Below, one piece after another: positions 10,007 to 62,400 of a stretch of DNA of 64,000 bases. Source of the stretch: Lingula anatina (Eukaryota > Animalia > Brachiopoda). The notes below the pieces were generated by a model. It did no database searches, was not told the origin of the DNA, and was given only the letters and a program-made list of their open reading frames with translations. Numbering within the stretch: the stretch's first letter is position 1; each line of letters begins with the position of its first letter. The stretch covers positions 7,502,001 through 7,566,000 of the forward strand of contig CM120642.1 of the NCBI GenBank assembly GCA_051362555.1, given 5' to 3'. Made by a program: the position numbers and the translations under genes.

Positions 10007-10209
10007 TTACATTAAGTAAACGTATGCATGAACGTATGTTCATGTATGGGTATATGTGTGATAATACACTGTAACCAGAGTGATGCATGCCAGAACATCC
10101 TGAGCTTCAGAGAGAGGTGCTCAAGGCACATATTGCGAGAGGGTGACAGTGTATTATTTGACATAAATACCATAAAAAATAATGTCATAGTGACCCGATA
10201 TCACGCTTA

Positions 10210-10428
10210 GACCGCATTTCCAGAGAGAGATTAGATTGATCTACTTTAGATCGACCTAACTCCCTGGGGGTTTACGCTAAATAGCTGTCAGCCGAGCGGA
10301 TACGAAAGTTAATTACCACCTTACAGCTTGTAGTAGGCGGGACAGACATTTAAGCCAGATTATCTGACAGTCATCTAGTGAGACTCCTCGCTGGGATAGA
10401 TCGATCTATAAGCTCTGGAAATACAGCC
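10210..10428. mobile_element. MITE family A copy 2
   Basis: Same core (CTCCCTGGGGG..GTTAATTACC..AGTAGGCGGGACAGA..GTGAGACTCC), TTA TSD. Confidence 0.85.
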
Positions 10429-32384: not shown

Positions 32385-32419
<35 letters not shown>

Positions 32420-36161: not shown

Positions 36162-39100
36162 CATTTACCCTGGGAGACCTGGTGCCGTTCTCCACCGCAG
36201 CTGTCTCTATAGCCTTGGCCAGCTGAGCACTCCTCTTCCTGGGAGAAGGGGTGGAGTCCGTGGACGGGGTGCCCTGCTCCTCCCCATCTGAGGTGTTGCC
36301 GTTAGGAAGCCTGGCTCCTCTCCGCCTACACCAACACAGAATTGGTATAGAAAATGATTTTTAAAAAAACTGATAACATACACAAACCAAGACAGGATTG
36401 TTATAAAAAATGACAAAAATCCTGTTAAAATGCACATCTTTGCTGCGCTGTGACACAGGAATACATTTAAATTGAAAACCATAAAACATGGACTTTGGAG
36501 GTAAAAAAGGGTGGGTAATGAAAGGGGTTTAAAATGATTTAATATCATGCAAGAACCTTAGTTAAGTATGTCTTTTCTGCACTGTGAGATAAAGCATGAT
36601 CTGCCATAAATATCAACCAGATTTTTTTCCCCATTTTTAAAATCTTTGCAAGATTTCAAAAGAATCCGTTTTTGACTGCACATTAAAAAAGTTGTAAATC
36701 AGTTCACTTTAGGTGCTACTGCAATGTAAACTTACACGTTGCCTCTCATTGGATAGGACTTCTTGGGCATACTGGCCAGCGCCTTGGGAAGTTTCTTCTT
36801 TGGGGAAGAAGCAGAGGTGGAACCGGAGGACGGAATGTCATTATCATCATCATCAGTCTTTGCATTGCGGCTCCTATTTCAAAAGGGTAAAAAAATCAAA
36901 TAATTTTTTTAAAAAGTAAAAAATTAATCAAAAGATAAACTGATCTACATCACTACACACCAACTGGGCCACTTTTTACAAAATATGTAAACTTTATAAA
37001 CTTGATTTAGTGTACAGCACTGCACTTCATGTACAACATAGCATACATATAATATAATACCTGTTATATGAGTAATATAGATAACTTAACACAAACTTAT
37101 AGGTATAATATATGCATTAGAAAATGTCCCAAATTCAAATTTTCTATGTCTACATATCCTGCAAATCAATAATCTTTCCCAATTCATATCTTACAAATGA
37201 TAAAACCCTCAAAATGATAGTTCCTGATATCAATATTTCTTTCAAAAATGTACAGGAAGACGTGGTGTAAAAACACAGCCATATATTGTAAACTAAACTA
37301 TTTAATGAAAATCGTTATTAATCCAAGTTCAGCTTTAAAGCAAAAACTTGTGTGTAAATTTTTTTTTGGAGGAAATGCAATTTCAAATTGGCAAATTCAA
37401 AATCTCAAGAGGGATCCCTTTAAAAATCAAATCAACATAATAAAAACTTCTCCGAGTGCAACCTGTTCGTACCTTTTTGCTGGGGAGCCTTTCACTGGAG
37501 AAGAATCTGCCTGACGTTTGCGTTGCGATGACCTGGTACTGTCACTAGGGGCTTTTCTTGGCGAAGACCTGGTGCTGCTGACCTCTGATGGCGACGACAC
37601 TTTGCCATCAGAATTAACAGTAAAATCAGGACTCAAGTTCTTGGTTACTTTCCTGGATATACAATAAGTTATTTCACAAACACAAACATGGATATTTAAT
37701 GAAATTGGTTTCACATCAAAATATATATCATATATTTTTTGTGATAGCAAGGAGATATTTCTTCAAATTTCCCAGCTACAATGCAATTTGCAAGAATCAT
37801 AGCAAAAGTATATATTCTGGTAATGATCAAATGAGATCCACTTTTAGAAGCTCTATCTCAGCCATGGAAATTACTCCAGCAAGTAGAAAGTACTACAGTG
37901 TCTAGTTCTCAAGTTATTGTAGCAACATGACAATAACATAGAGATAGCGGTTTATATTTAGTACATATATATATAATAACAGTCTTTTTTTATCTTATCA
38001 TATCTTCTTTCCCAAAACAAGTTCGAACAAAACCATTTGAAACCTGGTAGTATTGTAACATACCTGATATTTTTGTTAATTGCTATCTTTTTTGCTGGTT
38101 TTGGCGATGAAGCAGGTGCTCCTCTTAATCTTTTCACTGGACTAGGTGAGGAAGCAGGCGAACCACGTCGAGATGACCTAATTCCAGGGCCCTCTGACCT
38201 TGGAGATGATCTTGATGACCTTGAACTAGATGCTGGACTAGCAGGCACTTTCCGTTTAAGTTTTGCCCCTATTGGTGTCTTTTTCAAAGTTTTGTTTGGG
38301 GACTTGTTTGCATTTGTTTTTGCCGGTCTACCTCTAACGGGTGACCTGACAGTTTTTTTGTCTGGTGACAAATTCTTGGCAGGAGACGGTGCTCCCTTAT
38401 TTTGAAGATTTTTATTTTTCAAGTCTGTCAGTTTTGTTTGTTTGTATTTTATACTTGTGTTCCCTTTTGTGTTGTCCATTTTCTTGACTGATTTCACAGG
38501 AGATTTAACAGGCGACTTGACTGCTGCTTTCCTGTAAGTTAAAATAACAAGTTATAATTTTTTCTTCCTTTCATTCAGATAAATACTCAATTTATTCAAC
38601 AAATAACTTTTTCTCCCCCCCCTTTTCTTTTAGTTCAAACAAACAAAATCATCTAATTCTCTCTTTTTTTTCAAAATTGAGTTTTAGAGAAGGAGAGTCC
38701 ATTTAACTGTCACTTCATTTACATTACAATTGCTTTCCTCACTTACTGAAAAGCCACCAAAACTAAGTTCAATTTAAAAACGAGCACCAACCTCCCTCTA
38801 CTTCTTGTCCCAGTCTCCTGTGACTTTTCTTCAACATCCTCTTCTTCCTCCTCATCTTCATCCTCCTCCTCTTCCTCAACTTCCTTTTCATCCTCTTCAA
38901 CCTTTTTCTTGGCCCCCTTCTTTCCACCACCTTTGCTGCTAGGTGTTTGTTTTTTGGCATTCCCTTTCTTGCTTGGTTCCTTGTTCTCCTTCACATTGGG
39001 GACAGGGGAAGCTTTACTGTCACCTTTGGCCTTTGTTTTGGCCTTCTTGTTGACCACTGGTGACTGGACTTTATTGTCCTGGGTTGTTGACAGGGCAATT

Positions 39101-39593
39101 GCTGGTTTCTTCTGCAATGACAGAAATATTTGAATGCAATGACCAAGAACAACTCATTGGTTTCTGCTGTGATAATAGCACGGATATTTTTTAAACATAA
39201 CCAGAAGCTTCTTTTTCATTGCCTGTATCCTCCCCTGGGAGGTGAGAACTTCTACAGTCATTCTGAATATCAGCATCAAAACATATGCCATGCATATTGT
39301 GATATGCTGTAAACTAAACATATGGTGGAGGGAGGCAAATAAGAAAAAGACACAATTTGTAGCACTTATAGGACTCCTGGCAATACAGCATGGGAAATCA
39401 AAGCTGTTACAAATGAAAGTCCAAGTTTAGAATATATATGGCATGTATTGCTCAGTACACAAATAAGAAACATTTTATTATAACGATTGATCCTAATCAA
39501 TATTTCTGTAAACTATATTCATCTATTTGTTTGATTCTTTGAACATGCATCAACATACACATGCATATTTGTATTTATAGATCTTTATCATCC

Positions 39594-39643
<50 letters not shown>

Positions 39644-42600
39644 AATAAACACACACACACTATTAACTTTGAATCATAATTGCCAAAACCCTAACCTTGT
39701 TAGCTTCAGTGACCAAAAGTTCATCTGGCAGGTAAATCTTGGTGTTGTGGAAGTTCTGTCAAAGAAAAAATATTCGGATATCATAAAGGCTTAAAAAAAG
39801 AACAAATTGCACAAGTTAAATTGCAATAAAAATTAAATGAAGTATTAATTTAAGTTAACCTATAGGAATATTAGTAAGTACCAGATTAAGAAAGGAATTT
39901 GAAAATTGACTTTAAGACTACAAATTTGGGTCTACTCTAGATAATTCTAAAATAACTAGTCCTGAACAACAGAAATGAAGCAGTAAGTACCACTGACCAT
40001 TTTCCTTTAAAAATGTTATAAAACAGGTAAAATACTCGTTTTAATTGAACTAACAGATTTATCTTGCATCAAAGTGGACTCAATTTTGGGTCTTAAGGTA
40101 AAGCCAATCCTCACGCTAAGTATCACTTGTGAAAATGGCTCAATGATAATAAATAATACCACAGAATCTGATACGGAATGTATCATTTTAAAACTGCAGA
40201 CCTTTGAAATATTATGAACTCCTGTACAGTGATTGTTAACTTTAAAAGGACTGGATATAAAGTGTCTATCTAGAGCAATTCCATCAGAGGATTAGATGAT
40301 AATTAGACAGTGAAATATTGGAGGTAAACTACAATTCAATACTGGTTGGTGATTAAAGGAAAGTAACTTTCTTCTTAAATTTTGTCTCACCTCATCTGCC
40401 TGACTAAACAGCTTCATTGGCAGAACTGGCTTGGCTGGGCCATCTTTGAACACAAAGTTGGTGGACTTGGAAATTAGGAGCCCATGGCCCAAGTCACACA
40501 CTGCATACAATTTCTGTGGGATGAAATAAATTTTGAAAAATCATAATAAAATAAAAATAAATAAATAAATATCATTACTATCATCATCATCATTACCAAT
40601 AAATTTTAATACAAAATAAAAGAAAACAGTAAGCTCTTTTAAAAACAAATTTAGCTCACTTTGAAACACCATGATAATTTGTAAGTCTATCAAACAATTC
40701 ACGATTTTTTCACATGCTTTTGTACACCACCAGAAATTTGAAACTAGAAAAAAATCTAAAGCTATCAGTTTTTTAAAAATATATTATTTAGGGGAATTCT
40801 AAAAAATCACTTACGCAATTCATCTCTTCATTAGTGGGTCCCTGTGCATCCCTTGTCTGCTTGATCATCTCGAAGATTTTCCTGAAGAAGTTATAGCTCT
40901 GGTTCTCCGATTTAATCAGAGGTTCCATAACAAACCACAGACATCTGAAATGGCATGTAACAAGGCTTATTCAGTAGTTTCATGACAGACCACATACATC
41001 TAAATGGTACATAACTATTAGACTTGTTCAATAGCTAATAGCTTACAAACTGACATCCTGTACACTGTGCATGTGTAAACATGCACATGCGCCCAAACAC
41101 AAACAGAAGCAGGATCACTTCTAGCAGAAATTCATAATTTGTACACAAACCAACCCACTCTCTCTCACATGCATGCACACACACATAGGCACACACACAG
41201 ACACACACACACACACACACACACACTCAGAGTACTATTAGTCTACTTACTCCCTGATGTTAATGAGAGCTGGTACATTTTTGTAAGTTGTCAAATCTGG
41301 GTCATGAGCTAGCAGGTGTATGGTATAAGGTAAGACATACTCTGGCAAGAGGGAGAACAGCTTGTCTGAAACAAAAATTAACAAATTTTATTACAGGTAA
41401 AACGGGCTCAATGATAAAAATATACCCACAAGATTTAAATAATTTTATTTCATCTTTCACTTTCCATTACTATTTACTTTCTCATTTTGCAATGACCTTT
41501 CAGATATTAAAGTAAAAATGAAAAACTCCTTTGTAACTTTGCTGTCACTTAGTATTAAGTGCTTTATCTTCAAAAAGTATATTTTTAAAATCTCCCTTTT
41601 TTCAAATAGTGAAGATATGAAGACCCCTAACTCTCAACCAGAAAAAAAATAAATAAAAAGATTTCCCAACTAAGTCAGAGAAGCATCTGTTTATACTCAC
41701 TTGCGGCTGCCGAGTGCTGCTTTATATATTCCCTCCTCTTCTGTATGTTTAGAGAGATGTATTGTTTTACTGCCTGTTTTCTCTCCTTGAATGGGTCATT
41801 GGCTGCCAGGGAGAAGATGCTCATGTAGCGAAGTGGAAGTTTCATGGAAAACAGACCTTTGTGCAATTTCTGGGCGAACCTCGCTCGAACTTCAAAGCAA
41901 CTATCCTGATGGTAAAATATAGGAGAAAAATGTGGAGTTTTGTAACAAAGAGCACACCCTCATGAAACAGTCTTGAAATTTAAATATAGTTATAATAATA
42001 TCAACAACAACAATAACGATAATAAGAGATTATCCACTTTACAGGTTTTAAAGGAAGCAAGACAACAAACTTGTGAGAGCATTATACTTCCATTTCTATG
42101 AAATTATTTAGTTCTTGCACCATAACAGAATCAGGAAAAAATAATGTGACCATTGTGTACAATGATTTTCTTTGGAAAGCATTTGTGGCTTCATGGCCAA
42201 TTAATTTGGCCAATTTTGCTTAGTCTACTGAATTAGAACAACCTAAACGAATACTTACATTTATAAGCAAAGCTAAAGCTTGGAACTGTTCATGAGTGAT
42301 TAGCTCTGCGAAAACATTCTCTTGGGCCAGCTTCAGCATGCAGCATCCTGCCGCTAGACGTAACCGACTGGTCTCTGGTTTGCTACAAAAATCATGTGAA
42401 GTGATCAATTACACCTCAGCATAAAATCTAAGAACAGTCATTTTTCAGAATATAGTGCTGTAATATTTAAGAATTTTAAATCTTTTTAGAGCATATACTG
42501 ATAACTGTAAAGTGACGGGACATATAATTTGCCACACAAGAAATCCTTATCATCAACCTTGGCTCATGTAAGAATACGTCCACCTTGAGTAATCATTTCT

Positions 42601-45600
42601 TCAGTGATTATCTTTCGATGATTTAAACCTTTATAATGGCTACAGAGTTCTATTTGAACTTTTATTGACTCGTTTCTCATTCAGAATCCTGCATTACATG
42701 CTTGACAGTGTGCAATCCTGCTCTGTCATTGTATACACTGTTCAATGTTCAAGGCTACTTACTTGATATTTCCCCTCTCCATGAGATCTCCGTCATGTAT
42801 GATACAGGTGTGTAATAACCTGAGTGTAGACTGGCCCAGGTTGTTCATATTGGTCTTTAACCCAAGCAGCCACCGGCAGATCAGCTTCATGCCATGGATC
42901 TGAAATAACAGTGAATAGAGTTGAAGTCATTTCATCGCGTGTGTGCAGCATGACACAAATAGTTTAGACATATTTTAATTGACTTTGCATTGTCTGAAAA
43001 TGGAAGTGGCAGACTCCTACAAATTCCACCTACTGCTCCACCTAAAACTAATCAAGTGGTAGCTATATTCAGTCACTTCTGTCTCTGCATATAAAAAAGT
43101 ACAAGCCACAAGTCAAGCTATATGTGACTGCAACACAGTGAAAAGAAATTTTTTATCAAAAGTTATCTCTCAACTTGCTTTCCCTAATGGTGTAGACATT
43201 TTTGAATGCGTTTATTACTCCAAAAATTTCAAACATGCCCACCTTAGCTTGTGTTTCCTCTGACACCATATGATCACCATACCAACTTTCTGAGCTTGAC
43301 TTTGGTTTACTCTAAAATAAAAGGTAAAATAAAATAAAATAAACATTAATAACAGTCAAATACATAGACCAAACAAAATAAAACTAACGTACAACAATTA
43401 CACATTTTCAAATCCCACCATGTAGCCTCTATCAAATACTTTGCCCTATGAAGAAAACAATTATGAAGCACATATTACTCTGAGCATCGACTCCGTTTTA
43501 CAGAATTATCATCAAACATCTAAGGCTAATTCAAACTGTATTAGTCACAAAATACACAGCTTAGCATCCCCAGTCTCCTGTCTTACCCTGTCCTGCATCA
43601 GTAAGTCTTTGACAATAAATTTGGATACGATGCTCCTCAGGTCTCCTGCGACGTGCTGCGGGCAGTAGAACGCTATATGACCTATGGCAACTAATGCTGT
43701 CAGGAAGTTCACCGATTCATGATTCAGAGATTTCTTCAGGTGCTGGATAGAAAGTTCGAGTTGAGAATTTTTTACATATAAACCTGTATCTTTGTATCTT
43801 TGTCATTCGCAAGGAGTTGAAAGCAAGCATCTTGTCTTAGAAAACAATTAACACATACTTTTGACTAAAAGAAAATGAGAAATATGTCGCACCCCACCCC
43901 TTAAAAAATCCTTGGCAGATTATGAGTACAACAGTGTGACCCCTTTCTCACCTCCATCATCTGAGCATAAATCACTTCTTTGTTTGAGCATAATACTGCT
44001 ATCCCTTTGACAGCATGCTTGGCCTGCTTTGGGGACCCGATCTTCACCATGCTTGTCAACACAGGCAGCAAGCTCCTGAAATTTATAAAATGTGAAATTG
44101 GGTCTACTTCTGGGAGTCATGTCACTGAACTCCTTTTGTCCCACCAAAAAAAGGCATTTTGTCCTGTAATCTTTTAGGCCAGGCCCGTAGCCAGGGGGGG
44201 GTTCGGGGGGTTCGAAAGAACCGCCCCTTTTGCTGGAAAAAGGTCCACTTTGGGTAAAATTTGATGAAGGTACATGGGAAAAGGTTTATGGGAAAAGGTC
44301 CACTTTTTCAGAAAAAGAACCCCCCTTTTGAAATTGCTGGCTACGGGCCTGTAGGCACCGTGTGCCTTTTCTTCAGTAGGCATGAATTCATCTATATTCT
44401 GATGAAGTATTATTTTCGGACATAAAAAACACTTAAAAATAAAATACTTACGAATATATGTTTGGGAACTTTTCTTGCAATGCATAACCGGTGTTGCAAA
44501 ATATCTGGAGGGTAAGGTCGGCTGAAAATTTAAAAAGAAAATGCTTAAATTTCATGTCAGATATTAAAGTCTTAATTTTTAACACATTCAAATATCCACT
44601 GACAGTTAAAATAAATGTATCACTCTCCTGTGGTTTTGTATTATACTGTAACATAACTGTTTAACACCACAGAAATAAATAAATAAAAAGAGAGGGAAAA
44701 TAAGAATAATAAATATTCAGTTACAGTTGTTTTCCTATAATACATGCTGCTTCCTATAAAACATGCTGCATATTAGTAAGCTAAATAATGGTAAGTATAC
44801 TCACAGACTCCCTCATCCTCATGTTTTAGTAGAGCTATCAAATGTGTAAAAGTGGCTTCTGTCTGGTAAGCTCCAGGGTACACATATGACAGTGTCTGGA
44901 ATAACAAACCATGCTGTTTATGGACTTACAAAAATATGTTGGGATAACAATTTTATCATGACTATCAACTGACTAAAAAAGCAAGCCAAAATTATTTCAG
45001 ATTTAGATACACACATGCAAAAGGCACTGGCAAAAAGGGGATGTATAGTAAAATAATGGTAAAAGGGTCAATTCAAATATGACTTCAACCCAATTTTACA
45101 CTGAGATTCCTTTCAAAAGCCCTAGACAGAAATCAGCATTTGCTATTTCATTTTTCCCAGCATAATTTTTGTGGAATATTTATCTTGAGGCAATGCACTT
45201 CAAAAACACATTGTAAACAACTAAATTATTTTTCACCTGTGCAGTAAAACCACCTGCATTAACCTCAACTCACATATAACAGCTTCATCCCTGCCAGTGA
45301 TGCCGACTTGATTTCATCATTCATCTCGCCCAGCCCCCTGATGGCTTCGTCCACCAGGGTCATGAGGTGGGAGATGGCTTCCTGGTCTATGAGGACAGGC
45401 GCTATTCTCTCCAGCAGCACCTTTACTGTGCCGTAGATACCCTGCTGTGCCGCGGGGACCTGGCCCTGACCTCCAATCTTCTTCAAGATTTCTTTCTGTT
45501 GTAAAAGACGGGGGTTAAGAGAGGCATTTTAATGAAGGCATGTCTATTTCATTCCAGTACATCTTAATAAAAATTCATTTAAAAATTAATAAGTTAAATT

Positions 45601-48600
45601 CTAAAAAATCAATGATAAATTTTTTAAACAGCTACTGTAAATTTGAAAGAGGTACTAGATTATAGAATTTATCATAGTATTATATCTTTCTGAAACTAAA
45701 AAAGACCCGTTTTACAAACAACTTAATAAAAAGAAAAAAAATTAAAGAAAAAAATTTTAAAAATCAGCATCCAACTTTTTGTGACACAGCCTTTAGGCAA
45801 TTATTAAGAATTATCAGGACATAATATCCATGACAGTAAACTGACCACATGTTCCTCTGCCATCTTGCATGGGCAGCCAGGAGAGACCAAGTCCTGTAAG
45901 TGGGTCCTGATCCTCTTGTCATCCCTCAGAATTTGGTTAAATTTTTTTACATGTTCCAGGGCTTTGTTGCTGTCAGGAAGATTTCCTGAAAAATAACATA
46001 GTGTAACTTTTTAAAGAATCCCAGAGAAAATGTTTTTGAAAAATTTCAATTTTTTGTTTATTTCTGTAAAGGTGGCTGGGGTGTATTAATACATGTGATG
46101 TCAAATTACAAAATAAAGTAAAAATTTGCCTAATGAAGGTTATATAATGTGTCCACTGACATATTGCTTAAACATTTTTGTTGAAAATTTTGAACTAATG
46201 TTTCTGGATATGACATTTCTGAATATTAATATTTTTATATCAAGGCCTTACACTCCTTTTGTACTTTTGATATTAATATTCTACTTACTTGATAGAAAAT
46301 AAACCTTGGACATCATGAGGCTGACACTGTCTGCTGTCTGCAGATCTCTACTGTGTAAGTCTAACAAGCCGCGGACATGACACCTCAAACTGTACTGCAT
46401 CTTCAACAGCTCATTTAGTGCTCTGGAAAAGTTGACAAGTGGATTAAATCTGTAATCCCTCTGTAATACAGAAACCTTGGAAATTTCCCCCAACATCTAA
46501 CATACTTTACAATGACTTAAGAAAATGACTTTTTTCTTCCTTTTTTTTTTATTGTTCAATTTCGTCAATGCTGGAGTTAGCCCAGACTTGATAATTTGAA
46601 GTGAAAGTACTGAAAAAAAATTCTGCAAAATTTTTACTGAAAATAATTTTGGATAAACCCCCCAATGAAAAATGCACAAACAGAGGTAAAAATATCAATA
46701 CCATCAATATTTCATAAGTTAACTGGGAGTAAATCCTTAAAGAATTTTGCACTTTTTCTGTTTGGTAATTATCTTTATCTTAACTGCATATAATCTAATG
46801 TCAGCACTAAAAATGACTTCATAATCGTTATCATATCTATATATTGTCCATATCTGGCATTCTTCACTCACTTAATGGCACTTTGGTCTAGAGTTGCATA
46901 CAAGTAATAAAGTCGCTTCATGCGTTCCTTCACATCCAGCATGTATGGCACAAGGCATGTGTTGAAGATTCTCTCCACAACAAGTCTTGGAAAAGAAACA
47001 ATAAAATATATTTAGAGTGACTCCAAATACAGGAGAGTAAAAGCCACGTGCACTGGTAGAAAATACACACTAAAACTACAACTTAACTGTTATCAACTCC
47101 AACTCCTTAATAAGGCTACCATCTCTATTACAATTCATACCTAGCTCATAACTTCCGACAATTACAGAACTGCAGATAAATAAATTATCATGTATTTTGA
47201 AGATGGATTAAATTTAAGTTAACCTGATAGCCCTTGGAAATGTCAGAAAAGTGGAGAATTATATTTCCCAATTATTTAATTCATCAGTGTTACCCCCACT
47301 CTTACCTGTCTTCTATATTGGTCTGGTAGTACCCATTGATCACTCTGTCCTTCATCCAGTCCACCCTCTTACGCAGCTCCTTGTTTTCTTCAGTGTCTTC
47401 AGACTTGGACATTACCTTCTTAAACAGGTGCCCCAGCCCCAACAGTGCCTCACGGCGCACCTTGAACTACAAGTCAAACCAAATGCATTTTATGAAACAG
47501 CTATTCATGGGTGAGAACTTTATAACAAAAGTCATACAGCTCATTTCCTGGGTGTTGCATTCAGCCATAAAAAATCAGAAAAATCCCTACTCGGACTATC
47601 AAGAACCTCCTTCACAGTGAATTGAAAAACCTTTTTACCATTAGAAAACATTAATATTTGGCTTGGTAAAGACGTACAATGCTCTGCATATAACAAAGTA
47701 AAAGTTCTTTAATGAAATTGTTTTCATAAAAATGCCTAATGTTTTTTAACTCAGGCGGTTAGTAACAATTATAAACGCTAAACCTACTTGTGTTGTTCAG
47801 TATTCAATATGTGTTCTGAATATAATCAAAATTACTAGAAAAGATTATTTGAAATTGAATGTTAAGAGAATGATACGATTTTAAAAGAGCAGTATTTAAG
47901 TTTATTTATTTATTGGAGAAAAAGATATTCATTTATTCGAAAGAGGTCTTCAGTCTGATAAAATGAACATGTTTCTCTTACTTTCTTGTCCAGTGTTCTC
48001 TCCTTGACAAAACCCAGCAGTTCATCATTGATACCAGGCAAGTCTTTCTTGGCTGCGGCAATGATGGACTGGACGACATCATAGCGGATATTCTCCTCCT
48101 GGTCATGTTGACGCTGCTTCAAGTTTTCTACAATAAAGTGAGAAAGAATTAAGCACTGTTAACTTCAAAGACATGTATTCTCCAGGTTCTTTTTATTTTG
48201 AAAGGCAGTAAAGAAGTGGATATATACATTCTTCATGCTGTCACCTATTCAATTCCCAACATTAAGTTAATAAAGATTTGAACATCACGTTATTGACCAT
48301 GAAAATGGCAGTAAGGTTACATGACCTGTCAGACCTGAAGATCACATTACCTGACATGAAACAGGTGGACCTGAAGGTCACATTACATGCCATAAAATAT
48401 GTGGGAAGGTTAAATTACCTGTCATGTCTCCCCTCAGAGCTGGGTGGTTAATCAAGAACTGCTGGCTGTACTGCACACATATGGTCCTCACTGACGCACT
48501 GATATCATTAAATCTAAATGTGGAAAAAAAAACAAAATACTTGACAAATCTAAATGTGGATAAAACAAAATACTTGAAATATTTAAAACTGCCTAAAAAA

Positions 48601-51600
48601 CTATAATCATTTTGATCATATGTAAATGTGATTTATTTAGATAAACTGGTAGTCATCCTGAATTAAAAACATTCATGATATGGAGATATAACCTGTTGTG
48701 AGAGACTGTAATAGGGAAATATACCTGAACAGTTATTAAGCCAAACATATTTGCTTCAATATATAAAATAATGAAAAACACATTTCAAAATATTTCTTAG
48801 CAACATTCAATAAATAGACAAGAAATTTGTCATATAATTGTATACTTTTGCATATTATGTACATATTATTTTGCTCAGCATAGATGTGACTACATAAGGT
48901 GTCACAGCAACCTTGCACATGGACAAGAAGTTTGCAAAGGGGCAAGAAACTTGGGCCATTTGTAAGCTACAAATTGCTTTATTTAGTGCACAGACATGAC
49001 AGGCTACATATAATGCAATAAAATTTTACAGATGAATAAGAATTTACAAAAACCATATCTATACAATGTTTTATCATGATTAGACACTAAACAAGGGAAT
49101 GAATGACACAAAAGAGAGATCGTACCTCCCTAGAAAGCACAGCCACAGTGGCTTGTTTTGAACAGCAAGGTCCGAGTCTGTGTCTGAAAACATACGTGCC
49201 AACAACTTGGTGACTGCCTTTCTTTCACCCTCATCATTACTCTGAAAGATAGAAAATAATTACAACATAAACAGTCTGTGTCACCATTGCAAAGGTTACT
49301 TGAACTAGTGGGCCTGATAAAGTGTTTGGCCCATATCAAAATTAGTGGCAAGATGAAATCTACAGATTATGGAAAATAATCAAAACCACCTTACAATTAA
49401 TAAATAAGACTAGTTACTTTGAAATTTTTCATTTTACTTAAACTAGGCAGAGTTTCAAAAAAGAAATATTGCACAAAAATTAGTTAGATCTTTCAGATAA
49501 AAAAATCTGGCCTTCTTCAAGTCCACATAAATGAAGTAATGGTCTGAAACACTAACCGCAGATTTCTTGTTATAAAAGTGTTACACAGTCTGATCAATTG
49601 CAAGCCCAATGTTATCCACGTGGTATTTAAAATGGTTAAAGATTTCAATTTTTTTCTCATTTTTCTACTAAGCCAGTGGTTTTTGTTCTTTCTTTTTATT
49701 TTTCCATAATCACCCTGCCAATCCTACCTTAAGTTTGAACTCCAACTGTGGTAACACTGCTAAAAGAATACTGGGGGATATCATGTTGAGTTCATAGATC
49801 AGCTTAAAGATGTGATCTGATACTTCACTCTCCGAGGTCTTGCCCAGCATTAAAGCATTGTTGAAAAACTGAAATGTGGTGCAAGCACAGTTGCTGAGTA
49901 TTAATTTTTAAGTTCACACATAGCATGAAGAACTTTCTAGTACCAAATGCAAAAGTGATTATGTACACCAGGTGTAAATATTTTTTAAAATTGCTAAGTC
50001 ATTGCTTACAAACATACAGGTGTGTTTGCAAAAAACAAAAAAGGGATAACCCAACAAACAGCACTTTTTTTTTCAAAAATAATGTTAACATTGTAATATG
50101 CAACTGTTAAAATAAAAAGACTTCTATAACTTACAGTTTGAATGTAGGGTTCAATGGCATTTGATGTGCGTTTGATCAAGTCTTTAGCTAAGTCATATGC
50201 TTGGCGGTTCTGACTCTGGAAAGTTATACAAACAATGACATAAAAACTCAGTAAGGAAGTTGTTATTTACACAGCAGTAACTATCAAAATAAGAACAAAA
50301 TGTAATTTACTATTTTTAGTCCAGCTACATTTAGGTTTCCATTGCTTATTTCGTACCACATGAGCAATTTTCTGCCTAAAATCACATGACACTAAATATG
50401 GGACCATGGTGTAATGTTAATAATTTGTACAGTAAACAAGAACAAAACTGCAGCAAAACTTGGGATCAATGGTTGTCTGCTAAACAATAATAAGATCTTC
50501 TGTGCAAACCTGATGTTCAAGATGAGCTGTGACTTTACTGAATGAAGCTTTAGTGCTTTACTTATTTTGCTGGTACATGGCATATTGTGCTTCTTTTGAA
50601 CATAATATAATATAATATACCAAAAGGAGCATATTTATATAAAATTATTCTAACTTCCAAGATATCAATAATGATACATGATAATAGTCTTTTACAACAA
50701 GTTGATAAGGGCAAAGCTATTTCAAGAGATAAACTGTAAAAAGCAAAAACATAGTCCTACTACATTCTCAGCCGGAACCCAAAAGCTTTAAAAAATCAAA
50801 TAACTTTAATTTACCTTCCAAGGCTCAATGATGTTAACTAAAATGATGTCCAGAAGTTTTTGGGACACACTGTCCGCCTCGGCTATGAGTGGACACATCA
50901 TGTCCAACATAAAGTTTTTCACTTTGGCCGTGTGCTTGTCACTAAAATAGTAATGAAAAATATACAGACAATCAGTACTTGCTGATGACTGTGATAAAAT
51001 AATTGAATTTTTTTCACAAAACCGGACTGAAATTCTTAAGCTTTTTGATTCAAACAAAATTATTTATAGTCAGTCCAATGATTTATTTTGAATATTTTTC
51101 ATAAATAAACACACTTATATCCTGAATATGGTCAACAACTTTCCCTTACTTGATTATGTCAAACATCAGTTTGAAGAGACTGCAGAAAATTTCCTGGTTG
51201 TCCTCCAGTTCAATGCAGATATTGAATGACTTAACCCAGGCAAGGTTCTGAAAAGACGTCATTTCATAAGGTTTGAAACAAAAAAATTTAGAATGAAAAA
51301 ATGAAGAATTCCATAATTTGATTTAACCATAAGGAAAGATTAAGGACCCTATTAATGTTTGATTATATACATTTGATTAGTACAGAACAGCACACAGGAT
51401 ATCACAATCAAATGATCAAAAGTCTGACATATGACACACATTTCTTTTCTTCTAGGCGCTCTCACCCAAGTTAATGATAAATGCTAAAGCAGGAGAGTGA
51501 ACCTTACATAAGTGTCAGAATTCCCTCCTATAAACAAATACCACAAAAAGGCCTTAGAACTCTGCAACATATCACTTTTAATTATTTGGCAGAGAAATGA

Positions 51601-52502
51601 ATGAAAAGCCTTTAATTCATACCTCTAGCAGGTAAAAATATCTCTTGAACTGTGGTGCTTCTGGGTCATCCAGTCCCCTTAGCTGCTTGATCAGGAACAA
51701 GAAAATTTCCTGGAAGACAAAAGTTTCTTAAGATCATTGAGGGGTGGGGTGGGGGTATAAATGCAACACCCAAAATATCTAGATAAATCAGAAAGTCTTT
51801 TTATCTCTACACGATTTATCTCAAATATATATCTGAATAATCCTAAACAAACAAATCAATTCTTTCAACCTTTAACTGATCCTGATTGGTGTACGGTGCC
51901 TCTGGAGCAAAAATTCTGAACACGTCCGCAATGCAGCAGGCCACAAGCAGGCGCACATCCTTGCTGCTGTGATCTATGAAGAACTCCGAGGCAAGGTGGA
52001 GGGCCAATTCCGTGTACTTCTCATTATCATCCTGTCCCATGTCCTGAAAGGCCCTAGCCAATGCCTGGAATTACAACAAAGCCATAAGAAATGGTAGGAA
52101 CTCTGCCTTAGTATCATTTAAAGAAAATGTCATATGAAGTGACCAAAGAGTTAACAAGGACAAAAAGATCAACACAAAACAACCCAATGACTGTAATCAG
52201 AAATGAGAACACAATGTTTACATGAAAAAAATATATATGTATATTTCTCCACTAAAATGTTTTCAAAATTTCACATACATCCTTATATTTTCAAAATTTA
52301 TTATTCAACAAGGAGAAAAAATTAACAATAACTTCCATCCATGCCATGTTACAATCAGCCCAAAAATGAATCATACAGACTCCAAATGACCACAACTGAC
52401 CTTCAGTCTCTTGACCAGTTCTTCCTTGTTCATGTCTCCAGAGACTTCCTTGCACCCTGCAGGGTACACCAGCTTGGCTCCCTTGGATGCAGCTTTAGGC
52501 AT
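35847..52502 (-). CDS. PDS5: Sister chromatid cohesion protein PDS5 homolog (about 30 coding exons)
   Basis: First coding exon 52502-52401 [34 protein letters not shown]. Next exon from 52064 [37 protein letters not shown]. Internal exons include [74 protein letters not shown] and [21 protein letters not shown]-rich C-terminal exons lie at 39.1-36.2 kb; the last exon from 35885 reads [16 protein letters not shown] non-coding first exon ends at a donor near 53673. Confidence 0.96.
36111..36158. repeat. (TA)n microsatellite
   Basis: Long TA run in the last PDS5 intron. Confidence 0.95.
39594..39660. repeat. (CA)n microsatellite
   Basis: CA runs in a PDS5 intron; similar tracts at 41170-41226, 59423-59440 and 63027-63066. 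Confidence 0.95.
44180..44351. mobile_element. 172-bp MITE in PDS5 intron
   Basis: Perfect 15-bp TIR CAGGCCCGTAGCCAG / CTGGCTACGGGCCTG with 5-bp direct repeat TAGGC on both sides. A decayed relative lies at ~62992-63196. Confidence 0.85.
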
Positions 52503-54550: not shown

Positions 54551-57500
54551 ATGAATCAGAAAGCAGAACAGTTACAGAGCCGTGATTCTACGTTCGAGAA
54601 CCTCCAGGATATGTTTAAAGGGAGTGTTGAACCTGAAGTGATACACATGGTCCTCTCGGAGTATGAATGGAATGGTAGGGTTCATTATTTGTGTAGCTTT
54701 GACTAATTGTTGTACCAATACTCTAATTTGATATGCTCAGTACTATAGATACCCTTAATAATAATTATTTACTAATTTAGTAACAGACGCTTTAAGTTAA
54801 AACACCTGTTATTAAAATATAACATATTTTTGATGGTCAAGCTACATGTACCTAGACCATCATTTCTCCAAACAAATTCCAGCATAATAATATTTCTCTT
54901 CCTTCCCCCCCCCCCCCCTTTGGTCAAGCTGCCAGGACCATCAGTTCTCCAAATAAATTCCAAGGCAATGATGTGTCTCTATCCCTCAATCCCCCCCCCC
55001 CGAAACAAATATGTTTAAGTTACAAAGCATGTCCAGTTGCTGTTCTTCTCACCTCTGTACAGCTAGGTGAGCACAATTAAGGTACAGGAAAAACTGAGAA
55101 AATTTGAATTAGTTTTTATCTTCAGACCACCCCTGTCACTCACACGCACTGGTAGTGACTCATAACCTTCAAAAGACAATTGGTCATTCGTTGCTCACTC
55201 TCAGATAGCCAAAATGTACCCTCTATTATCAGTTTGGCAAATATTACAGGGAAAATGTGAAAAAGCCACCCTGTTATTTTTGGCCAGATGGAAGCAATTA
55301 AATCTACATGCAGATGGCATAGTATTGCTCTGTAGGGAGCTACTACAGCAGATGCCTCAGTTGACTTCAATCTGTAGTAACAAGCTATTCAGAAGGGACT
55401 ATTTTTATCTGTCACAAAAGAGCAAGTGATTAAAGTGCACACAACCTAGGTATTGAAACAGGTAGACATGAAAAAATTCCTCAAGCAGACAGAATTTGCA
55501 AAAAGTGTAATTCTGGGGAAATAGAAGATGAAATCCATTTCCTTGTGTCGTGCCCTCTTTATACAGATCTCCTATATGATCTTTATTCAGTGTACAAAAA
55601 ACAAGATAGTAACTTTGAGCATCTTACCAGAATGGATAAATTTATAACACTAATGACTGGTAAGAAGAATGAACAGATGATTGCTCTTGCCAAATATTTA
55701 TGGTTAGCCTTTCAAAAAAAGGGACTGTGCTGCACCCATTACCAACAAGTGTACTGGCTGTTGAGTAGGTAAAGCCACTTGGGCTCTGCCAATTATGTTT
55801 TGTATTTTTCTTACATATAGTCGTATCATTTCACTACTTGATATAATTCATACTTATTTATAAGTGCATTCCTATTGTACATTTTCATCTACACATGTAG
55901 ATGCATACAATACAATGAATAAAGAAAGAATATTAAATTCAGAGCAATTAACAGTCTTGATTGCTGTCAAGGGGACTTTGCTTGGGTCAGATAAGTGGCA
56001 GTGCCTAAGCAGATATGCAAACATTTGCCAACCATGTAATCAACCTAGAGATTTCAGCACAGGGTCAGAGATAGTAAAATGACTTTCTATTTGTCTAAAG
56101 GCATACCTGTGAATACCCTGTGAAAAGTCAATCTGTGGCCCTGGTAGAGGGTAGCCAAAATGGCAGTTCTTAATGTCTTGAAACCCCTTGCCTACAAAAA
56201 ATATTTTCCCTGTTGAAGATCAGTGGTAACTATCCCAACATTGGATTATTGTATTGTGTAAGTTTATCTTGGCATGAAACATTTTGTTACAACCAATGAT
56301 GACAATACCCATCCTAGAATATGTCGGCAAAATTTTTTGAAGGCCATCTGTTCATTTAAAGATCTTGGACCAATATGGCAGGTACAATATATATCAGTGG
56401 TAAAAATTTAAAAATTCCATTGGCCTTGAAAAATTCATCAGAAGACTATGTTTTGACAAGAAATCAGTTTCAGATCAGTCAAATTTTTTTGGGGTGGCAA
56501 ACAAAGCAACAAAAAGGGGTGTTTTAACTTCTAAAGTGTTTTTTATTGTACTTAGGCCACACTTTTTTATTTTTATGGATGACATCCTCTGGGGACCCGA
56601 AATCTGTGCCAGAGGGCGAGAAAAAAAAAAAAAAAACGTCCCAAAAAAAAAATACTGCCTTAGTAAAGGAATGCTGTCAGTACACAGCTGGAAACACAAA
56701 TTTATCACAGAAACGCGTATCAAACTAACAATATGTCTTTATCTATGCTCTCAAAATATTAAAGCATTGTGAATACTTCACAGAAATGTTTAAAAATCAT
56801 GCAAAGATATGCTTAATACTACCAAATCCATTAAAGGTCATTTCAGTCAAAGCTGTTTTGTCTACTTCGACTCGCACGAAGCAGCCAAACTGTCGGGTAG
56901 CCTGTCCGACCTTCAGCACACCAAATACCTTGACGCCTTTGTCGACCTTGTTTTCGCTACAAAAAAAAAAAAAAAAACTGGTACGTGCTGCTTTGGACAG
57001 AATGTCACTGAAAATTTCCAGGCAACAATCGCCAGCCTTTTGTATAATTGTAGAAAGGTGATATATCCATGCCCAATATCAATGGCATACCAATCCAAAA
57101 CGACGGCCCCCGTCCCCTTTATGACTTTAATTGTCGTGTAATTTGACAGCAATCCTAGAGATGACTTTGACAGTGTAGTGCCAGGGGCAGGTAGAACCGG
57201 CTGGATAGCTCAGGCGGTAGAGCACTCGCCCTGTTAGCGAGAGGTCCCGGGTTCGATTCCTGGTCTGGTCGGTGATTTTTCTGCACTCACCCCAAATCGC
57301 TACAGTGGTGGCAGCGGTGTTGCGAGATAGGGCTCACAGCTTTCGGCATTTGGGGGGGAGGAGTGTAGTGCCAAGGGCAGGTAGAACCGGCCGGATAGCT
57401 CAGGCGGTAGAGCAGTCGCCCTGTTAGCGAGAGGTCCCGGGTTCGATTCCTGGTCTGGTCGGTGATTTTTCTGCACTCACCCCAAATCGCTACAACAGCA

Positions 57501-59404
57501 AAGCCGCCACATTTCCACATGGCAATAATATGCATGTGCAGAAAACTCATTTTCTGGCAAATTCAATAACGGCGTTTGCGACAACCGACTTCGTTGGGGG
57601 TGATTTTTTTTTTTTTTTTTTTTTGGAGAGCGGTGCGCGCGCAGGACGCAGGAAGTCATCCATAAAAATTAAAAAGTGTGGCCTTATATTAAAATATAAT
57701 TGCTCACAGAGCAAAGTCAATGACTTGCAAATTATTAATAAATAATAAGTACTTTAAAATCGTAGAAACTTTAAAAAGCTCTTGATTAATATATTCAGTT
57801 TGTTCAGTTTATTCAGTTTGTTCATCAAATATTGTGAGAGCTGTATCTTATACCCCGTTCACACTACAGTTGCCAAAATGCGCATTTCTATAATTCGGAT
57901 TTTTCGTAAGGAATCCAATTCGGTATTGCGTTCACACTTGCTAAGCGAATCCGAATCCCACGTTGAAAATTTCAGGTTAAACTTCCTGTTTTGAACACTC
58001 GGGCATGCGCCGCACAGGAAATCTTAAAATATCAACAAAAATTTGTGACGACAAATGCAACTCAAAAGACATTCCAGCATTCTTGAGAAGTATAAGGTGG
58101 CAAAATAAGTTTGTTTCCTCATGTTGTAGTGAGTGGTGACCGCCAAATACGTTTGGTGCAATCGCTAAAGTAATAAACCAGCGTTCATAGATACCCGCAC
58201 TTATCTGCACACATGCGCAGTAAGATCTGTACAGGTGTCGATTCCGGTAAGTTATCCGGATCGCACTTAGAAATCCACCTCGCTTGCAGGATTTTGAAAA
58301 TGCGCATTTTCAAAATCCTCTTGCGTTCACACTACTGCATTTATTCGAATTGTGACCTAATTCGCAACTTATCCGGATAACTGAGCGTAGTGTGAACGGG
58401 GTATTAATTGTTTCGGCACATTTGATTACTTTGCTTTCTAATGAATACTGTGGGGCATAATGCTTTCTGGATTCCATATACTGCATTTTATTAAAGACTG
58501 TTGACTTAGGATGCTGGCCTGGTAATCAGGTGATTTCATATGGGGTGTGCTGTGTCTATAATACCTTTGGACTTGATATTTGTGTTTATTATTTGTACAA
58601 GGGACAGAAGTTTAATCACCTGCAAAGGATGCAACATATGTGGGCATATCTCTCTAGGCTTTTTTTTTTTTAAGATACAAGGTGACAAAATCTTTAGCCA
58701 TGTGACATAAAAAAAACTGTGACATTGAAAGTTATTGAAGAGTTCAATAAGACACTTCATTTCTCAATTTTGTGGTCCCTGCTCATTCCTCTTTTCAAGT
58801 TATCTGGTTAAGATATTTTTGTTGGAGTGACCTCACTCACCTGAAAAGAGCAGGTTTAATGGTTAAATCAAAGTGACAGTCATCTTTAAGTTATTGCAAA
58901 TTCATCTGAGACCTCCAGAGAACATCAGTTATTCAGATACTAAGAGGTACTAATTTTAAACTAAAGGATGATTAAGTTTGCTTCTTTCATTATTTTAGGG
59001 TCCCGACTGAAATGTTTTGCCTTATCATCAACCATTTTGACAGCCAATTGATTTGCACTTTGACTTCTATGCTGTGATTTATTATGCCTAGATATAATTG
59101 CCCTTTCTAGTGTGCAGCTTTTTATTGCTCATAATATAATGATTTCCCAACCGTATATTTGGGAATTAGAATACAGTTTAGAATTTTTATGTGTTAATTT
59201 ATTTAATATGTAGACACAGTATATACATTTACCTGGAAGAGTGGCAAAAGTGACATATATACCTCCAAATATTTTTCCATAACTGTAATTATTTTTCATG
59301 TCATTCACAAATTTGGTAGGTACCTCAGTGAGAAATAAGCATTGTTTATGGCACATTCAAAAGTGACTCTCGGCATGCTGACAGGGTGCATATCAGATAT
59401 GGCG

Positions 59405-59436
<32 letters not shown>

Positions 59437-62400
59437 TGTGATTTCCTATGCAAAAAGCATATCTACAGAAATGCAAAACAGGTGGTTTGATGTGGAAAAC
59501 TTTTAGCAAGAAGTTAAATATAGAAAAGGTTTCAAAGGCCACTCACATGTGTAGTAAACATTTTATAGGTGGATACGGACCCATCAGTAAGCAGGTACAA
59601 TCTGTCTTATAATTATAGTAGCTAATTGACAGTTGATCTGTTATTACTACTATAATTTATTTTTATTCAATAATAATTGTTGTCAAGGAAAAAGGTTCAT
59701 TAATCATTGGAAATAAAATAATAATAAGGTTATTGGGCACAAGGTAGATTTCTTCTCACTGTTAACTTTTGGACAACCTAATCAGAAGCCATATCACAGT
59801 GAATGTTGTCACTGACTGACTGCAATGTTGTCACTGACTGACTGCAATGTGGAATGGATTGTTGTCCTAATAAACATGATGTCTTTTAGTGACAAATAGG
59901 TTCAAGGCCCAGTCACTATAAAAATACTACATTCTACTCTATTGTAGGCTCTTGTGATTTCATCAACTTCACCAAGTTTCAGATAATTTTGCAGATCAGT
60001 AGCTAACTATTATCACTAAGAGTGCATTCCCAGAGATCGATCCATCTGGATCGACCTAACTCCCTGAGGGTTCACGTTAAATTGCTGTCAACCAAGCGCG
60101 CACGGCAGTTAATTACACCTTTTAGTAGACAGGACAGACATTTAAGCCAGTTAAGCTGACACCAATCTAGTGAGACTCCCCAGGGGGATAGATCGATCTA
60201 AATGTTTATGGGAATGGGATCTTACAGTGATGAATAGTGCACTTATCAATGTTGTAATCCTTACTAGTTTATGTCAGCTGGTGAGTTTGGTTTGACCATT
60301 ACATATACCTTTGCTCACCTGTTTAATCCTGAGATATATTTTTTCTCCAAAAGTTTAATTTGATCTTCTCCATTACACCTTTGTCGACAGCTGAAGTGTC
60401 TCTGCTATTCAAATAAGTGAATTAGTTGCCCAGTCAGAAAGGAAAAGTCAACGTATTGGCAATACAGCAATTTGTGTGATGTTCATGCACAGATCATTAT
60501 TTTGTCTTTTTCTTATGTCAAATTTTCTTGGTCAAAAATCTGTCAACATCAGGTAACCGTATATAATATTTCAGTATTAGCAAGTGGATATTTACATGGC
60601 GTTACAGTTAAAATTGTATGCTAAATGGAGATGTCAAAACTTGCATTGGCCTTGACTGTGCATCCATATTTCATGGCCATATGATACAGTTATGGTGGCT
60701 TTGCTGTAAAAATATCTTGCTGGCAATTTTCAATAACTGCTTGGATCAATTTATTTATAATGATAATATATGTATGTAGTCTATATGTACACACGTGGCC
60801 ATCTGTTTGAGCCTGCCTCTTTTAGGATTATCTATTTATTATTATTATTATTATTATTTTTTTTTTTTTTGGGGGGGGGGAGGGGGAGAGAGAGAGAGAA
60901 TTGCTGAATTTTCATAGATTCTGCATCCATTATATGACTGCCCTGTAAATTATCTATATTTTAGCCATCAGAGAGTGGTAGGTGAGGGATGCATTGCACT
61001 TTGCAGATCTATAAGCTCAGAGGGTATGGATGTCGTGAAGGAGTTGCACAATTGGCAAATGTATATAATACATGTACTATAAATATTTACTAGTACCTTT
61101 GCCTAGGAGGCTATGTTTTCATCTCATAGTCTCTTTGCCTCTTTGTCACCAGCCTAACTCAAAAACTTATGAATGATTTTGATTGACTTTCAGGATAGGT
61201 GATAAATGGGCTGACTTTACATTTGTTAGATTTTGGTCGTGATATATGATCCATGAATTTTTTATAGGATACTTCACCATTGCGACTTAGGGCCAATTTC
61301 GCTGACCCCTAAATCAGGAAAGGTGCTAATAGGTCACTGTGCAATGAATGTGCTTTCAACCACCAATCTTATTGATCAATTTATCAACTGTGCTAAGTCC
61401 TTGACGAAGGTCCAACTTGAGTGGACAAAATTTGACTGGAAACACGGAGTTAACAACTGAACCGCTTTTTATTGTAGCATTGTCCCATTATCATCCTTAT
61501 AAATATACGGCTGGTGGTACATGTGTGGGGACCACCCCCATCTCTCAGTGCCTCTATTTCATACAGGATGAATACTCTAATTTTCTCATTTTATTTAACC
61601 AAAGCAAATTATCTTTCGATATTTGGAAGTAATTTTTATATGCTATCCTTGGTAGGCTTAATATGGTCGGCTAAATGCGAGTTATTTATGTCATTAGGTT
61701 CATATGCCCTAGATATAAATTGCATGCTGATTATCAGGCAGCTATCATGTGCCACTACTGCTACACTGTAATGTGTTCCAAGGGTTTGCATGTACTGAAG
61801 TAAACCACAAAAAATCAATAAGTGGATGTTTATTACTTTCCAATGCTATTTCTGCTTGGTATAGTGCTTTTTGAATTATTGGTGAGAAATACTACTCTCT
61901 CGTGTGTATTGCACATTTTAGAAATCAGCCAAATCTTTTAAATATTGCAAATTTACTGCATCATCTGTGTACCTAGTAGAGCTAAGTAAGCTTAAAAAAT
62001 TTTCACCTTATATCAGGGGCTCATAACTCTATGACGAAAACATTTACACCAAAATGTTGGCACAGGATTGAAGACCATACACTTGTCTTCACCTATGCCA
62101 ATTTTATATTACTGGTGATCTATCTATCTATCTATCTTTTTTTGATGGATTTTAATTATATTTTGTCAGCACAAATGTAGATGCATTATTGAATAATAAC
62201 AGAGAGGAAAAACCTCATTTTCAGTATCTGGATGATCATTCACCCTAACAGTATCCTGAAACATTAACTGAGGAAGTCTGCTTGTAAAAGCAATTATTAC
62301 ACACAGTGTCCAGTGTTTAAATGATCAGTATCTTGATTCCTTAAGGAACAGGCTTTGTCCCATGACAACATTAACATACATAGTGTTCAGGATGTTACTC

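What the first reader, a model, noticed from the sequence alone, without database searches (positions are those of the whole stretch)
57170..57498. 321-bp LTR retroelement whose LTRs are built around a tRNA gene (SINE-like promoter, LTR-type replication)
Seen: what looks like two tandem tRNA genes is a complete TRIM. It has TG..CA-bounded 131-bp LTRs, each holding a 73-nt cloverleaf with intact A/B boxes and a T5 terminator, a tRNA-Leu PBS one base after the 5' LTR, a G-rich PPT, only 59 bp of internal sequence and an ACAG TSD. LTR identity of 128/131 implies a fairly recent insertion. Established: Cassandra TRIMs carry 5S rRNA in their LTRs. From memory, tRNA-bearing TRIMs with 4-bp TSDs in animals have been described as Helenus, so the class is probably known but rare, and this family may be new. 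Puzzle: the Pol III terminator lies before the PBS, so the genomic RNA needs read-through or another promoter, while the short product would be a free tRNA mimic with an aberrant anticodon loop.
Basis: partly seen in the sequence, partly recalled or inferred. Interest (0 to 1): 0.75.

Follow-up and report, generated by a model that had tools for sequence, protein, structure and literature searches.

The report
Known Helenus-1 mini-retrotransposon copy
This is a real 321-base, gene-less jumping element with a tRNA look-alike in each end repeat, about 94% identical to the Helenus-1 family already published from the brachiopod Lingula anatina, so it is an ordinary copy of a known family, likely transcribed by RNA polymerase III and likely moved by a Gypsy retrotransposon's enzymes.

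Summary
The anatomy is as described: two 131-bp TG..CA LTRs (128/131 identical), each with a 73-nt cloverleaf and a T5 run, a 14-nt tRNA-Leu PBS, a 12-nt PPT, 59 bp inside, ACAG on both sides. The family is not new. By eye it matches the Helenus-1_LAn consensus of Kojima 2024 at 304 of 323 columns; the middle of its tRNA part follows the sister family Helenus-3_LAn. Public DNA runs show many copies with other flanks and an empty site shorter by exactly 325 bp (321+4), which confirms the 4-bp TSD. It sits inside a high-copy 0.8-kb inverted-repeat element, about 5 kb upstream of a PDS5 gene. The terminator puzzle is real, and the paper does not address it for Helenus. Likely answer: T5 leaks (5-26% read-through in human cells), and read-through gives the R-U5-PBS-PPT-U3-R template. 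mRNA-type reads neither support nor exclude this. The scan has noted Helenus-type elements before in at least 21 other genomes. Verdict: already known; interest 0.15.

The parts
57170..57173 (+). left copy of 4-bp target-site duplication (ACAG)
   Evidence: empty-site joint skipping 325 bp in run X1
57174..57304 (+). 5' LTR, 131 bp, TGTAG..CTACA
   Evidence: 125 of 132 columns match Helenus-1_LAn-LTR by eye
57199..57271 (+). tRNA-like cloverleaf in the 5' LTR (A box 57206-57217, B box 57250-57260; anticodon loop with C33 and U37)
   Evidence: Rfam RF00005 52.4 bits; cloverleaf is the minimum-energy fold
57276..57280 (+). T5 run, Pol III terminator-like, 4 nt behind the cloverleaf and upstream of the PBS
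   Evidence: function not tested
57305..57363 (+). internal region, 59 bp, non-coding
   Evidence: 55 of 59 match Helenus-1_LAn-I by eye
57306..57319 (+). [quoted passage not shown]
   Evidence: compared by eye with Fig. S2 of PMC10886601
57352..57363 (+). polypurine tract, 12 nt, abutting the 3' LTR
   Evidence: sequence
57364..57494 (+). 3' LTR, 131 bp
   Evidence: 124 of 132 columns match Helenus-1_LAn-LTR by eye
57389..57461 (+). tRNA-like unit in the 3' LTR; the change at 57415 breaks the top pair of the anticodon stem
   Evidence: Rfam 47.9 bits
57466..57470 (+). T5 run of the 3' LTR, predicted 3' end of the genomic RNA
   Evidence: inferred
57495..57498 (+). right copy of the target-site duplication (ACAG)
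56555..57683 (.). host repeat that received the insertion: non-coding element with 34-bp terminal inverted repeats (56555-56588, 57650-57683) and TTA on both sides, about 0.8 kb without the TRIM; likely a PIF/Harbinger-type MITE (class recalled from TSD and ends)
   Evidence: summed contig depth up to 1e5 against 50-100 at 57712-57843; no Pfam family in 8 of 8 overlapping frames scanned

Best explanation
The element is a fairly young copy of the published non-autonomous LTR retrotransposon Helenus-1_LAn, inserted with a 4-bp duplication into a high-copy repeat; it is likely transcribed by RNA polymerase III from the tRNA-type A/B boxes in its 5' LTR, and would be reverse-transcribed from a host tRNA-Leu primer and integrated by proteins likely borrowed from a Gypsy element. 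Shown: anatomy, family identity, many copies, 4-bp TSD. Inferred steps: (1) Pol III starts a few bases before the cloverleaf. (2) Most transcripts likely stop at the T5 of the 5' LTR and give a roughly 90-nt tRNA-like by-product whose anticodon loop is non-standard. (3) A minority likely reads through; no other T-run of 4 or more lies between the two T5 runs, so these would end at the T5 of the 3' LTR as a roughly 280-nt RNA with the whole tRNA unit as the terminal repeat R. (4) tRNA-Leu would prime at the PBS, the first DNA strand would jump via R, the PPT would prime the second strand, and a Gypsy-type integrase would make the 4-bp duplication. Family identity about 0.97; Gypsy dependence about 0.85; Pol III with leaky T5 about 0.6.
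For: Family: 304 of 323 columns match Helenus-1_LAn by eye; the same 59-bp interior and 4-bp TSD are listed in Table S1. Copies: 104 contigs of run X6 lie on the element, and loose ends before 57174 disagree with one another (4 contigs, agreement 0.54), so the flanks differ. Summed depth over the element is tens to hundreds of times that of the neighbouring low-copy stretch in 3 of 3 runs of organism A (not a copy number). Empty site: joint 57169-57495 in X1, and related joints with a single 4-letter target in X1, X2 and X6. Age: LTR distance 0.023, 95% range 0.005-0.067. Gypsy link: Gypsy-57_CaAu and Gypsy-130_CGi carry a PBS for the same tRNA-Leu; the paper reports PBS similarity of animal Helenus only to Gypsy. 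Leakiness: T5 terminated 95% (U6) and 74% (7SK, H1) in human cells, full stop only from T6 (PMC5725217, passages); read-through is common at human tRNA genes (bioRxiv 10.1101/2025.10.17.683076, passages). Cassandra is described as starting in the 5' LTR and ending in the 3' LTR despite terminators in both. By eye, 17 of 45 bivalve, brachiopod and nemertean Helenus LTRs have no T-run of 4 or more behind the B box, so the run is dispensable; 5 of 44 interiors have a sense-strand T4 or longer against 31 of 44 with A4 or longer.
Against: No Pol III transcript was seen: 38, 9 and 15 reads in three RNA runs, on both strands, no place where many molecules begin or end, and 53-100% of laid reads run on into unlike sequence; these fit passive carriage in longer transcripts. 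The libraries (PolyA, unspecified, oligo-dT) are poorly suited to a short non-polyadenylated RNA. The termination figures come from human type 3 promoters, not a brachiopod tRNA-type promoter. The T-run tally is by eye, the families are related, and A-richness near PBS and PPT could explain much of the contrast; one family has a T5 inside. The paper itself calls the Pol III promoter unvalidated. No autonomous partner was found, as no genome was held. The host species is inferred from the element alone: two protein searches did not return a near-identical CBP or PDS5 (best 89% and 67%).
Confidence: 0.8

Rival explanations
1. Same element and same reverse-transcription route, but the genomic RNA comes from Pol II, either an LTR promoter or host transcripts running through a copy; the tRNA unit and its T5 then only make a short by-product or act as a chromatin or structure signal.
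For: The RNA reads seen are on both strands and mostly continue into other flanks. A T5 stops 74-95% of Pol III in human cells. Cassandra arrays are found in longer transcripts (PMC7215508, passages).
Against: Only 25 bp of LTR lie upstream of the cloverleaf, leaving little room for a Pol II promoter. A and B boxes are the conserved part across Helenus families, and element size stays at 311-1263 bp. mRNA-type libraries would show passive reads under either model.
Confidence: 0.15
2. Two genuine tandem tRNA genes that arose by local duplication.
For: Both pass the Rfam tRNA threshold and ARAGORN; the 5' copy folds as a cloverleaf.
Against: The repeat extends 25 bp before and 33 bp behind the cloverleaf to TG..CA ends, with PBS, PPT and TSD. 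The whole unit is missing, to the base, in empty-site contigs. It matches a published TRIM. The anticodon loop lacks U33 and purine 37, and the two copies get different isotype calls.
Confidence: 0.02
3. The element makes its own primer: the short tRNA-like transcript, with CCA added, binds the element's PBS.
For: Lead from an earlier scan note on a diatom element (e1-7504483); the short transcript is predicted to exist.
Against: By eye, the 3' end of the cloverleaf pairs with this PBS for only about 4 nt beyond CCA, two of them G-U, against 14 of 14 for host tRNA-Leu. The paper also found no such complementarity in Helenus.
Confidence: 0.02

Closest known systems
Helenus-1_LAn (Lingula anatina), Kojima 2024, Biology 13:119, PMC10886601, Data S1 and Table S1
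   Same: LTR 132 versus 131 bp, interior 59 bp, 4-bp TSD, same ends, PBS, PPT and T5; 304 of 323 columns identical by eye.
   Different: Six LTR columns shared by both LTRs (five substitutions, one 1-bp gap, from the acceptor stem to the variable loop) differ from Helenus-1; seven further changes are not the majority state in the runs and look private to this copy.
Helenus-3_LAn (same paper)
   Same: All six shared LTR differences are the Helenus-3 states; about 58 nt (57190-57247) follow Helenus-3. Reads with the Helenus-3 LTR start occur in organism A.
   Different: LTR start, T arm, U5 and PBS flank follow Helenus-1. The copy is thus a Helenus-1/-3 intermediate subfamily or recombinant; which one was not resolved.
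Cassandra and Ajax (TRIMp3 with 5S rRNA-derived LTRs)
   Same: Non-autonomous LTR element with a small-RNA-gene promoter inside each LTR; Cassandra has terminators in both LTRs and reported LTR-to-LTR transcripts.
   Different: 5S rather than tRNA origin; plants (Cassandra) or nemerteans with 5-bp TSD (Ajax).
tRNA-derived SINEs (SINE2)
   Same: Internal A/B-box promoter from a tRNA.
   Different: SINEs use LINE machinery and target-primed reverse transcription; this element has LTRs, PBS, PPT and a 4-bp TSD.

Membership tests
Helenus (TRIMp3) | two LTRs with TG..CA ends, whole element short (311-1263 bp) and non-coding | tested here: met
   321 bp, 131-bp LTRs; no Pfam match in the 3 frames of 70 or more codons that overlap it
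Helenus (TRIMp3) | tRNA-derived sequence with A and B boxes inside each LTR | tested here: met
   Rfam RF00005 52.4 and 47.9 bits; boxes
Helenus (TRIMp3) | PBS for a host tRNA and PPT between the LTRs | tested here: met
   14-nt match to tRNA-Leu-AAG of Fig. S2 by eye (the tRNA shown is from bee and human, the host's own was not available); 12-nt PPT
Helenus (animal type) | 4-bp target-site duplication | tested here: met
   ACAG both sides; empty site shorter by 325 bp. TSDs of other copies could not be read
Helenus (TRIMp3) | interspersed multi-copy family | tested here: met
   many contigs and differing flanks in DNA runs
Helenus-1_LAn | at least 90% identity over at least 90% of the consensus (the paper's full-length criterion) | tested here: met
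   125/132, 55/59, 124/132 by eye; not scripted
Helenus-1_LAn | host is Lingula anatina | tested here: inconclusive
   runs of organism A carry both Helenus-1 and Helenus-3 diagnostic stretches; protein searches show an animal but did not name the species
TRIMp3 | transcription by RNA polymerase III | tested here: inconclusive
   few reads, no start or end pile-up, unsuitable libraries; also unvalidated in the paper
Helenus (animal type) | mobilised by an autonomous Gypsy element | not testable with these tools
   no host genome held; only PBS likeness to Gypsy elements of other species
functional tRNA gene | canonical anticodon loop (U33, purine 37) and one consistent isotype | tested here: not met
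   loop has C33 and U37; ARAGORN gives Thr and Asn for the two copies; tRNAscan-SE not available; no Lingula family stands in the Fig. S1 lines read
PIF/Harbinger MITE (host repeat) | terminal inverted repeats and 3-bp TTA/TAA duplication | tested here: met
   34-bp arms, TTA on both sides; the class criteria are recalled, no transposase partner was sought

The most novel reading that the evidence does not exclude
The Helenus RNA is a tuned two-product unit. A leaky T5 yields an abundant tRNA mimic and a rarer genomic RNA. The genomic RNA is protected and presented by structure: the 5' leader and 3' trailer extend the acceptor stem by 3 bp, which could hinder RNase P and Z from cutting the genome out as a pre-tRNA, and U5 pairs with the PPT end to close a domain that holds the PBS. 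The U5-PPT pairing can be drawn, with different letters, in the three Lingula families, Helenus-1_LiLo and Helenus-2_TeGr (by eye). At 321 bp this would be a minimal test bed for how a Pol III transcript becomes an LTR-retroelement genome.
Probability: 0.25. Interest if true: 0.45.

Novelty: already known. Interest (0 to 1): 0.15.

Why it matters
As a finding it adds little: the family, its size and its TSD were published in 2024. Practical value: such copies are called as tRNA genes (here as Thr and Asn) and inflate tRNA counts. The open point, whether Pol III really makes the genomic RNA across its own terminator, belongs to the whole Helenus group; this very short family with a T5 is a convenient object for that test. 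The Helenus-1/-3 mosaic hints at template switching between co-packaged sister families.

Tried and rejected
No genome was held, so copy number, solo LTRs, other TSDs and the autonomous partner could not be searched directly. No other copy in the window. The run search listed no RNA holder; this is no evidence on expression. The RNA lay gave 38, 9 and 15 reads from about 6%, 6% and 25% of three runs, with no joints and no pile-up of ends: inconclusive. Folding gave no strong signal: predicted genomic RNA z -0.36; cloverleaves z 0.19 and 0.21, U5 plus interior z -1.5 and -1.7, whole LTR z -1.65, interior alone z 0.16; the U5-PPT helix appears in these folds but partly follows from base composition. 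Two protein searches to name the host failed; the first was capped at 2000 residues, which likely excludes full-length CBP. Contigs bridging this exact insertion were not seen in X6, and this copy's private interior letters were not seen in X1, X2 or X6; contigs cannot show absence, so polymorphism is only a possibility. Earlier scan notes by sequence and by place: none. Kalendar 2008 was not held; it is cited only through Kojima 2024. Rejected: tandem tRNA genes, self-priming, SINE dimer (no poly-A tail, LTR ends, PBS and PPT present), assembly artefact (the LTRs differ at 3 sites and the structure equals a published consensus).

Full report
Observation. The sequence holds two 131-bp direct repeats at 57174-57304 and 57364-57494 with 3 differences, TGTAG..CTACA ends, 59 bp between them and ACAG on both outer sides. 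Each repeat contains a 73-nt tRNA match (Rfam 52.4 and 47.9 bits) with intact A and B boxes, followed after 4 nt by T5. The 5' cloverleaf is the minimum-energy fold, though no more stable than shuffles (z 0.19). The anticodon loop has C33 and U37, and ARAGORN calls the two copies Thr and Asn. The PBS (57306-57319) is complementary over 14 nt to the tRNA-Leu-AAG end printed in the Helenus paper's Fig. S2 (by eye). The PPT is 57352-57363.

Is it a mobile, multi-copy element? No genome was held, so public runs were used (11 of 22 listed rows hold part of the stretch, 10 of them organism A). Contigs of 4 runs were laid on 56700-58000. In the 3 runs of organism A the summed depth over the element is tens to hundreds of times that of the low-copy stretch at 57712-57843; the tool warns that this is no copy number, so only 'many copies' is claimed. 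The fourth run (organism B) gave 2 contigs, one on the element. One X1 contig joins 57169 to 57495, skipping exactly 325 bp with 4 letters fitting either side and 66 letters on the shorter side; related joints in X1, X2 and X6 also show a single 4-letter target. This is the empty site, in an allele or in a paralogue of the host repeat, and it proves the 4-bp duplication. In one search, 104 X6 contigs lay on the element alone, and loose ends before 57174 disagree (4 contigs, agreement 0.54), so other copies have other flanks. Their TSDs could not be read.

Surroundings. The TRIM interrupts a non-coding repeat at 56555-57683 with 34-bp terminal inverted repeats and TTA on both sides, of very high depth; by recalled criteria a PIF/Harbinger-type MITE. 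The window is animal DNA with a CBP/p300 gene on the + strand and a PDS5 gene on the - strand whose first domain exon ends near 52070 (70 of 81 frames of 70 or more codons beyond 33.2 kb were scanned, 9 matched PDS5). The element lies about 5 kb upstream of that exon.

Identity. Kojima 2024 (PMC10886601; I read parts 1-5 of 6 of the text, and supplement parts 1, 6, 7, 9, 10 and 11 of 11 plus one motif search) lists three Helenus families from Lingula anatina. Helenus-1_LAn has a 132-bp LTR, a 59-bp interior and a 4-bp TSD. By eye the window copy matches it at 125/132, 55/59 and 124/132 columns, 304 of 323 in all (94%), above the paper's 90% criterion for a full-length copy. Six LTR columns differ in both LTRs alike, and all six are the Helenus-3_LAn states, while the LTR start, T arm, U5 and PBS flank are Helenus-1. 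Both states are common in organism A (at 57235 the Helenus-1 letter has 1830 of 4241 depth in X6). The copy is therefore an intermediate subfamily or a recombinant; since both LTRs share the pattern, it was present when the copy inserted. Seven other changes look private (57202, 57305, 57336, 57338, 57339, 57374, 57415). The LTR distance is 0.023 (95% range 0.005-0.067): fairly young, not dated. The host is likely L. anatina or a close relative; protein searches did not confirm this.

Mechanism. Shown are the cis parts and the integration mark. Inferred from standard LTR replication (described): host tRNA-Leu primes at the PBS, the strand jumps via R, the PPT primes the second strand. A Gypsy helper is inferred from the paper (animal Helenus PBSs resemble only Gypsy) and from two Gypsy elements with this PBS type. 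Self-priming fails by eye (about 4 nt beyond CCA, two G-U) and was not found in the paper either.

The terminator puzzle. In the paper's main text 'terminat' occurs twice, both for Cassandra, and read-through not at all; searches for TRIMp3 and for Helenus, TRIM and tRNA listed no follow-up that tests it (one 2026 sugar-beet paper mentions Helenus 3 times; seen as a listing only). The simplest answer is a leak. T5 stopped 95% (U6) or 74% (7SK, H1) of human Pol III, T4 18-75%, and only T6 or longer stopped all (PMC5725217, abstract and passages); read-through is common at human tRNA genes (bioRxiv 10.1101/2025.10.17.683076, passages). Between the two T5 runs the sense strand has nothing longer than T3, so a read-through transcript would end at the second T5, giving about 280 nt with the tRNA unit as R. 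A by-eye tally of the supplement parts read found a T-run of 4 or more behind the B box in 28 of 45 bivalve, brachiopod and nemertean LTRs and none in 17; A-runs there in 3 of 45; T4 or longer in 5 of 44 interiors against A4 or longer in 31 of 44. This fits Pol III passage but is weak: it is unscripted, the families are related, and the interiors are purine-rich.

RNA. Three RNA runs gave 38, 9 and 15 reads, on both strands, mostly continuing into unlike sequence, with no pile-up of ends. In X13 reads cross the interior, 10 in one direction and 2 in the other. This shows family members inside longer transcripts and says nothing on a short Pol III RNA.

Structure leads. Folds place a helix between U5 and the PPT end (z -1.5 to -1.7 for the sub-regions, -0.36 for the whole predicted RNA) and extend the acceptor stem with leader-trailer pairs. 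Similar U5-PPT pairing can be drawn in five published families looked at for it (by eye); the others were not scored. I did not see this in the parts of the paper that I read. It is a lead only.

Verdict. A true element, correctly read, but a copy of a published family. Earlier notes of this scan hold the words Helenus, TRIM, tRNA, LTR, retrotransposon in 111 findings from at least 21 genomes (unchecked notes). Novelty: already known. Interest 0.15.

Noticed in passing
window 56555-57683: Very high-copy non-coding element with 34-bp terminal inverted repeats and TTA flanks (likely PIF/Harbinger MITE) that hosts the TRIM; about 0.8 kb when empty.
   Followed up: partly
window 13728-33140, + strand: CBP/p300 gene; the last exon (31248-33140) holds ZZ, TAZ2 and Q-rich parts.
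   Followed up: partly
window 5026-6349, - strand: Inverted, rearranged partial duplicate of the last CBP exon, 88-94% identical, still an open frame of 430 codons with changed zinc-finger residues.
   Followed up: no
window about 37000-52070, - strand: PDS5 cohesin-regulator gene, converging on CBP; 9 exon frames match PF20168.
   Followed up: partly
window 23328-25190: Tandem array of about 12 units of 146 bp, 90-99% alike, with related inverted pieces at 7940-8206.
   Followed up: no
window 4677-4912, 10191-10426, 16704-16939, 60049-60218: Dispersed repeat family of about 240 bp, four copies, 70-93% alike.
   Followed up: no
window 57850-58404: A second inverted-repeat element next to the host repeat, 18-bp perfect arms 519 bp apart, high depth in the DNA runs.
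   Followed up: no
window 57229-57388, run X11 (organism B): One low-depth contig (depth 3.7, 9 differences in 160 letters) of another organism label carries the Helenus-1 type junction; a relative or carry-over.
   Followed up: no
window 57190-57247: The middle of both LTRs follows Helenus-3_LAn while the rest follows Helenus-1_LAn: intermediate subfamily or recombinant.
   Followed up: partly
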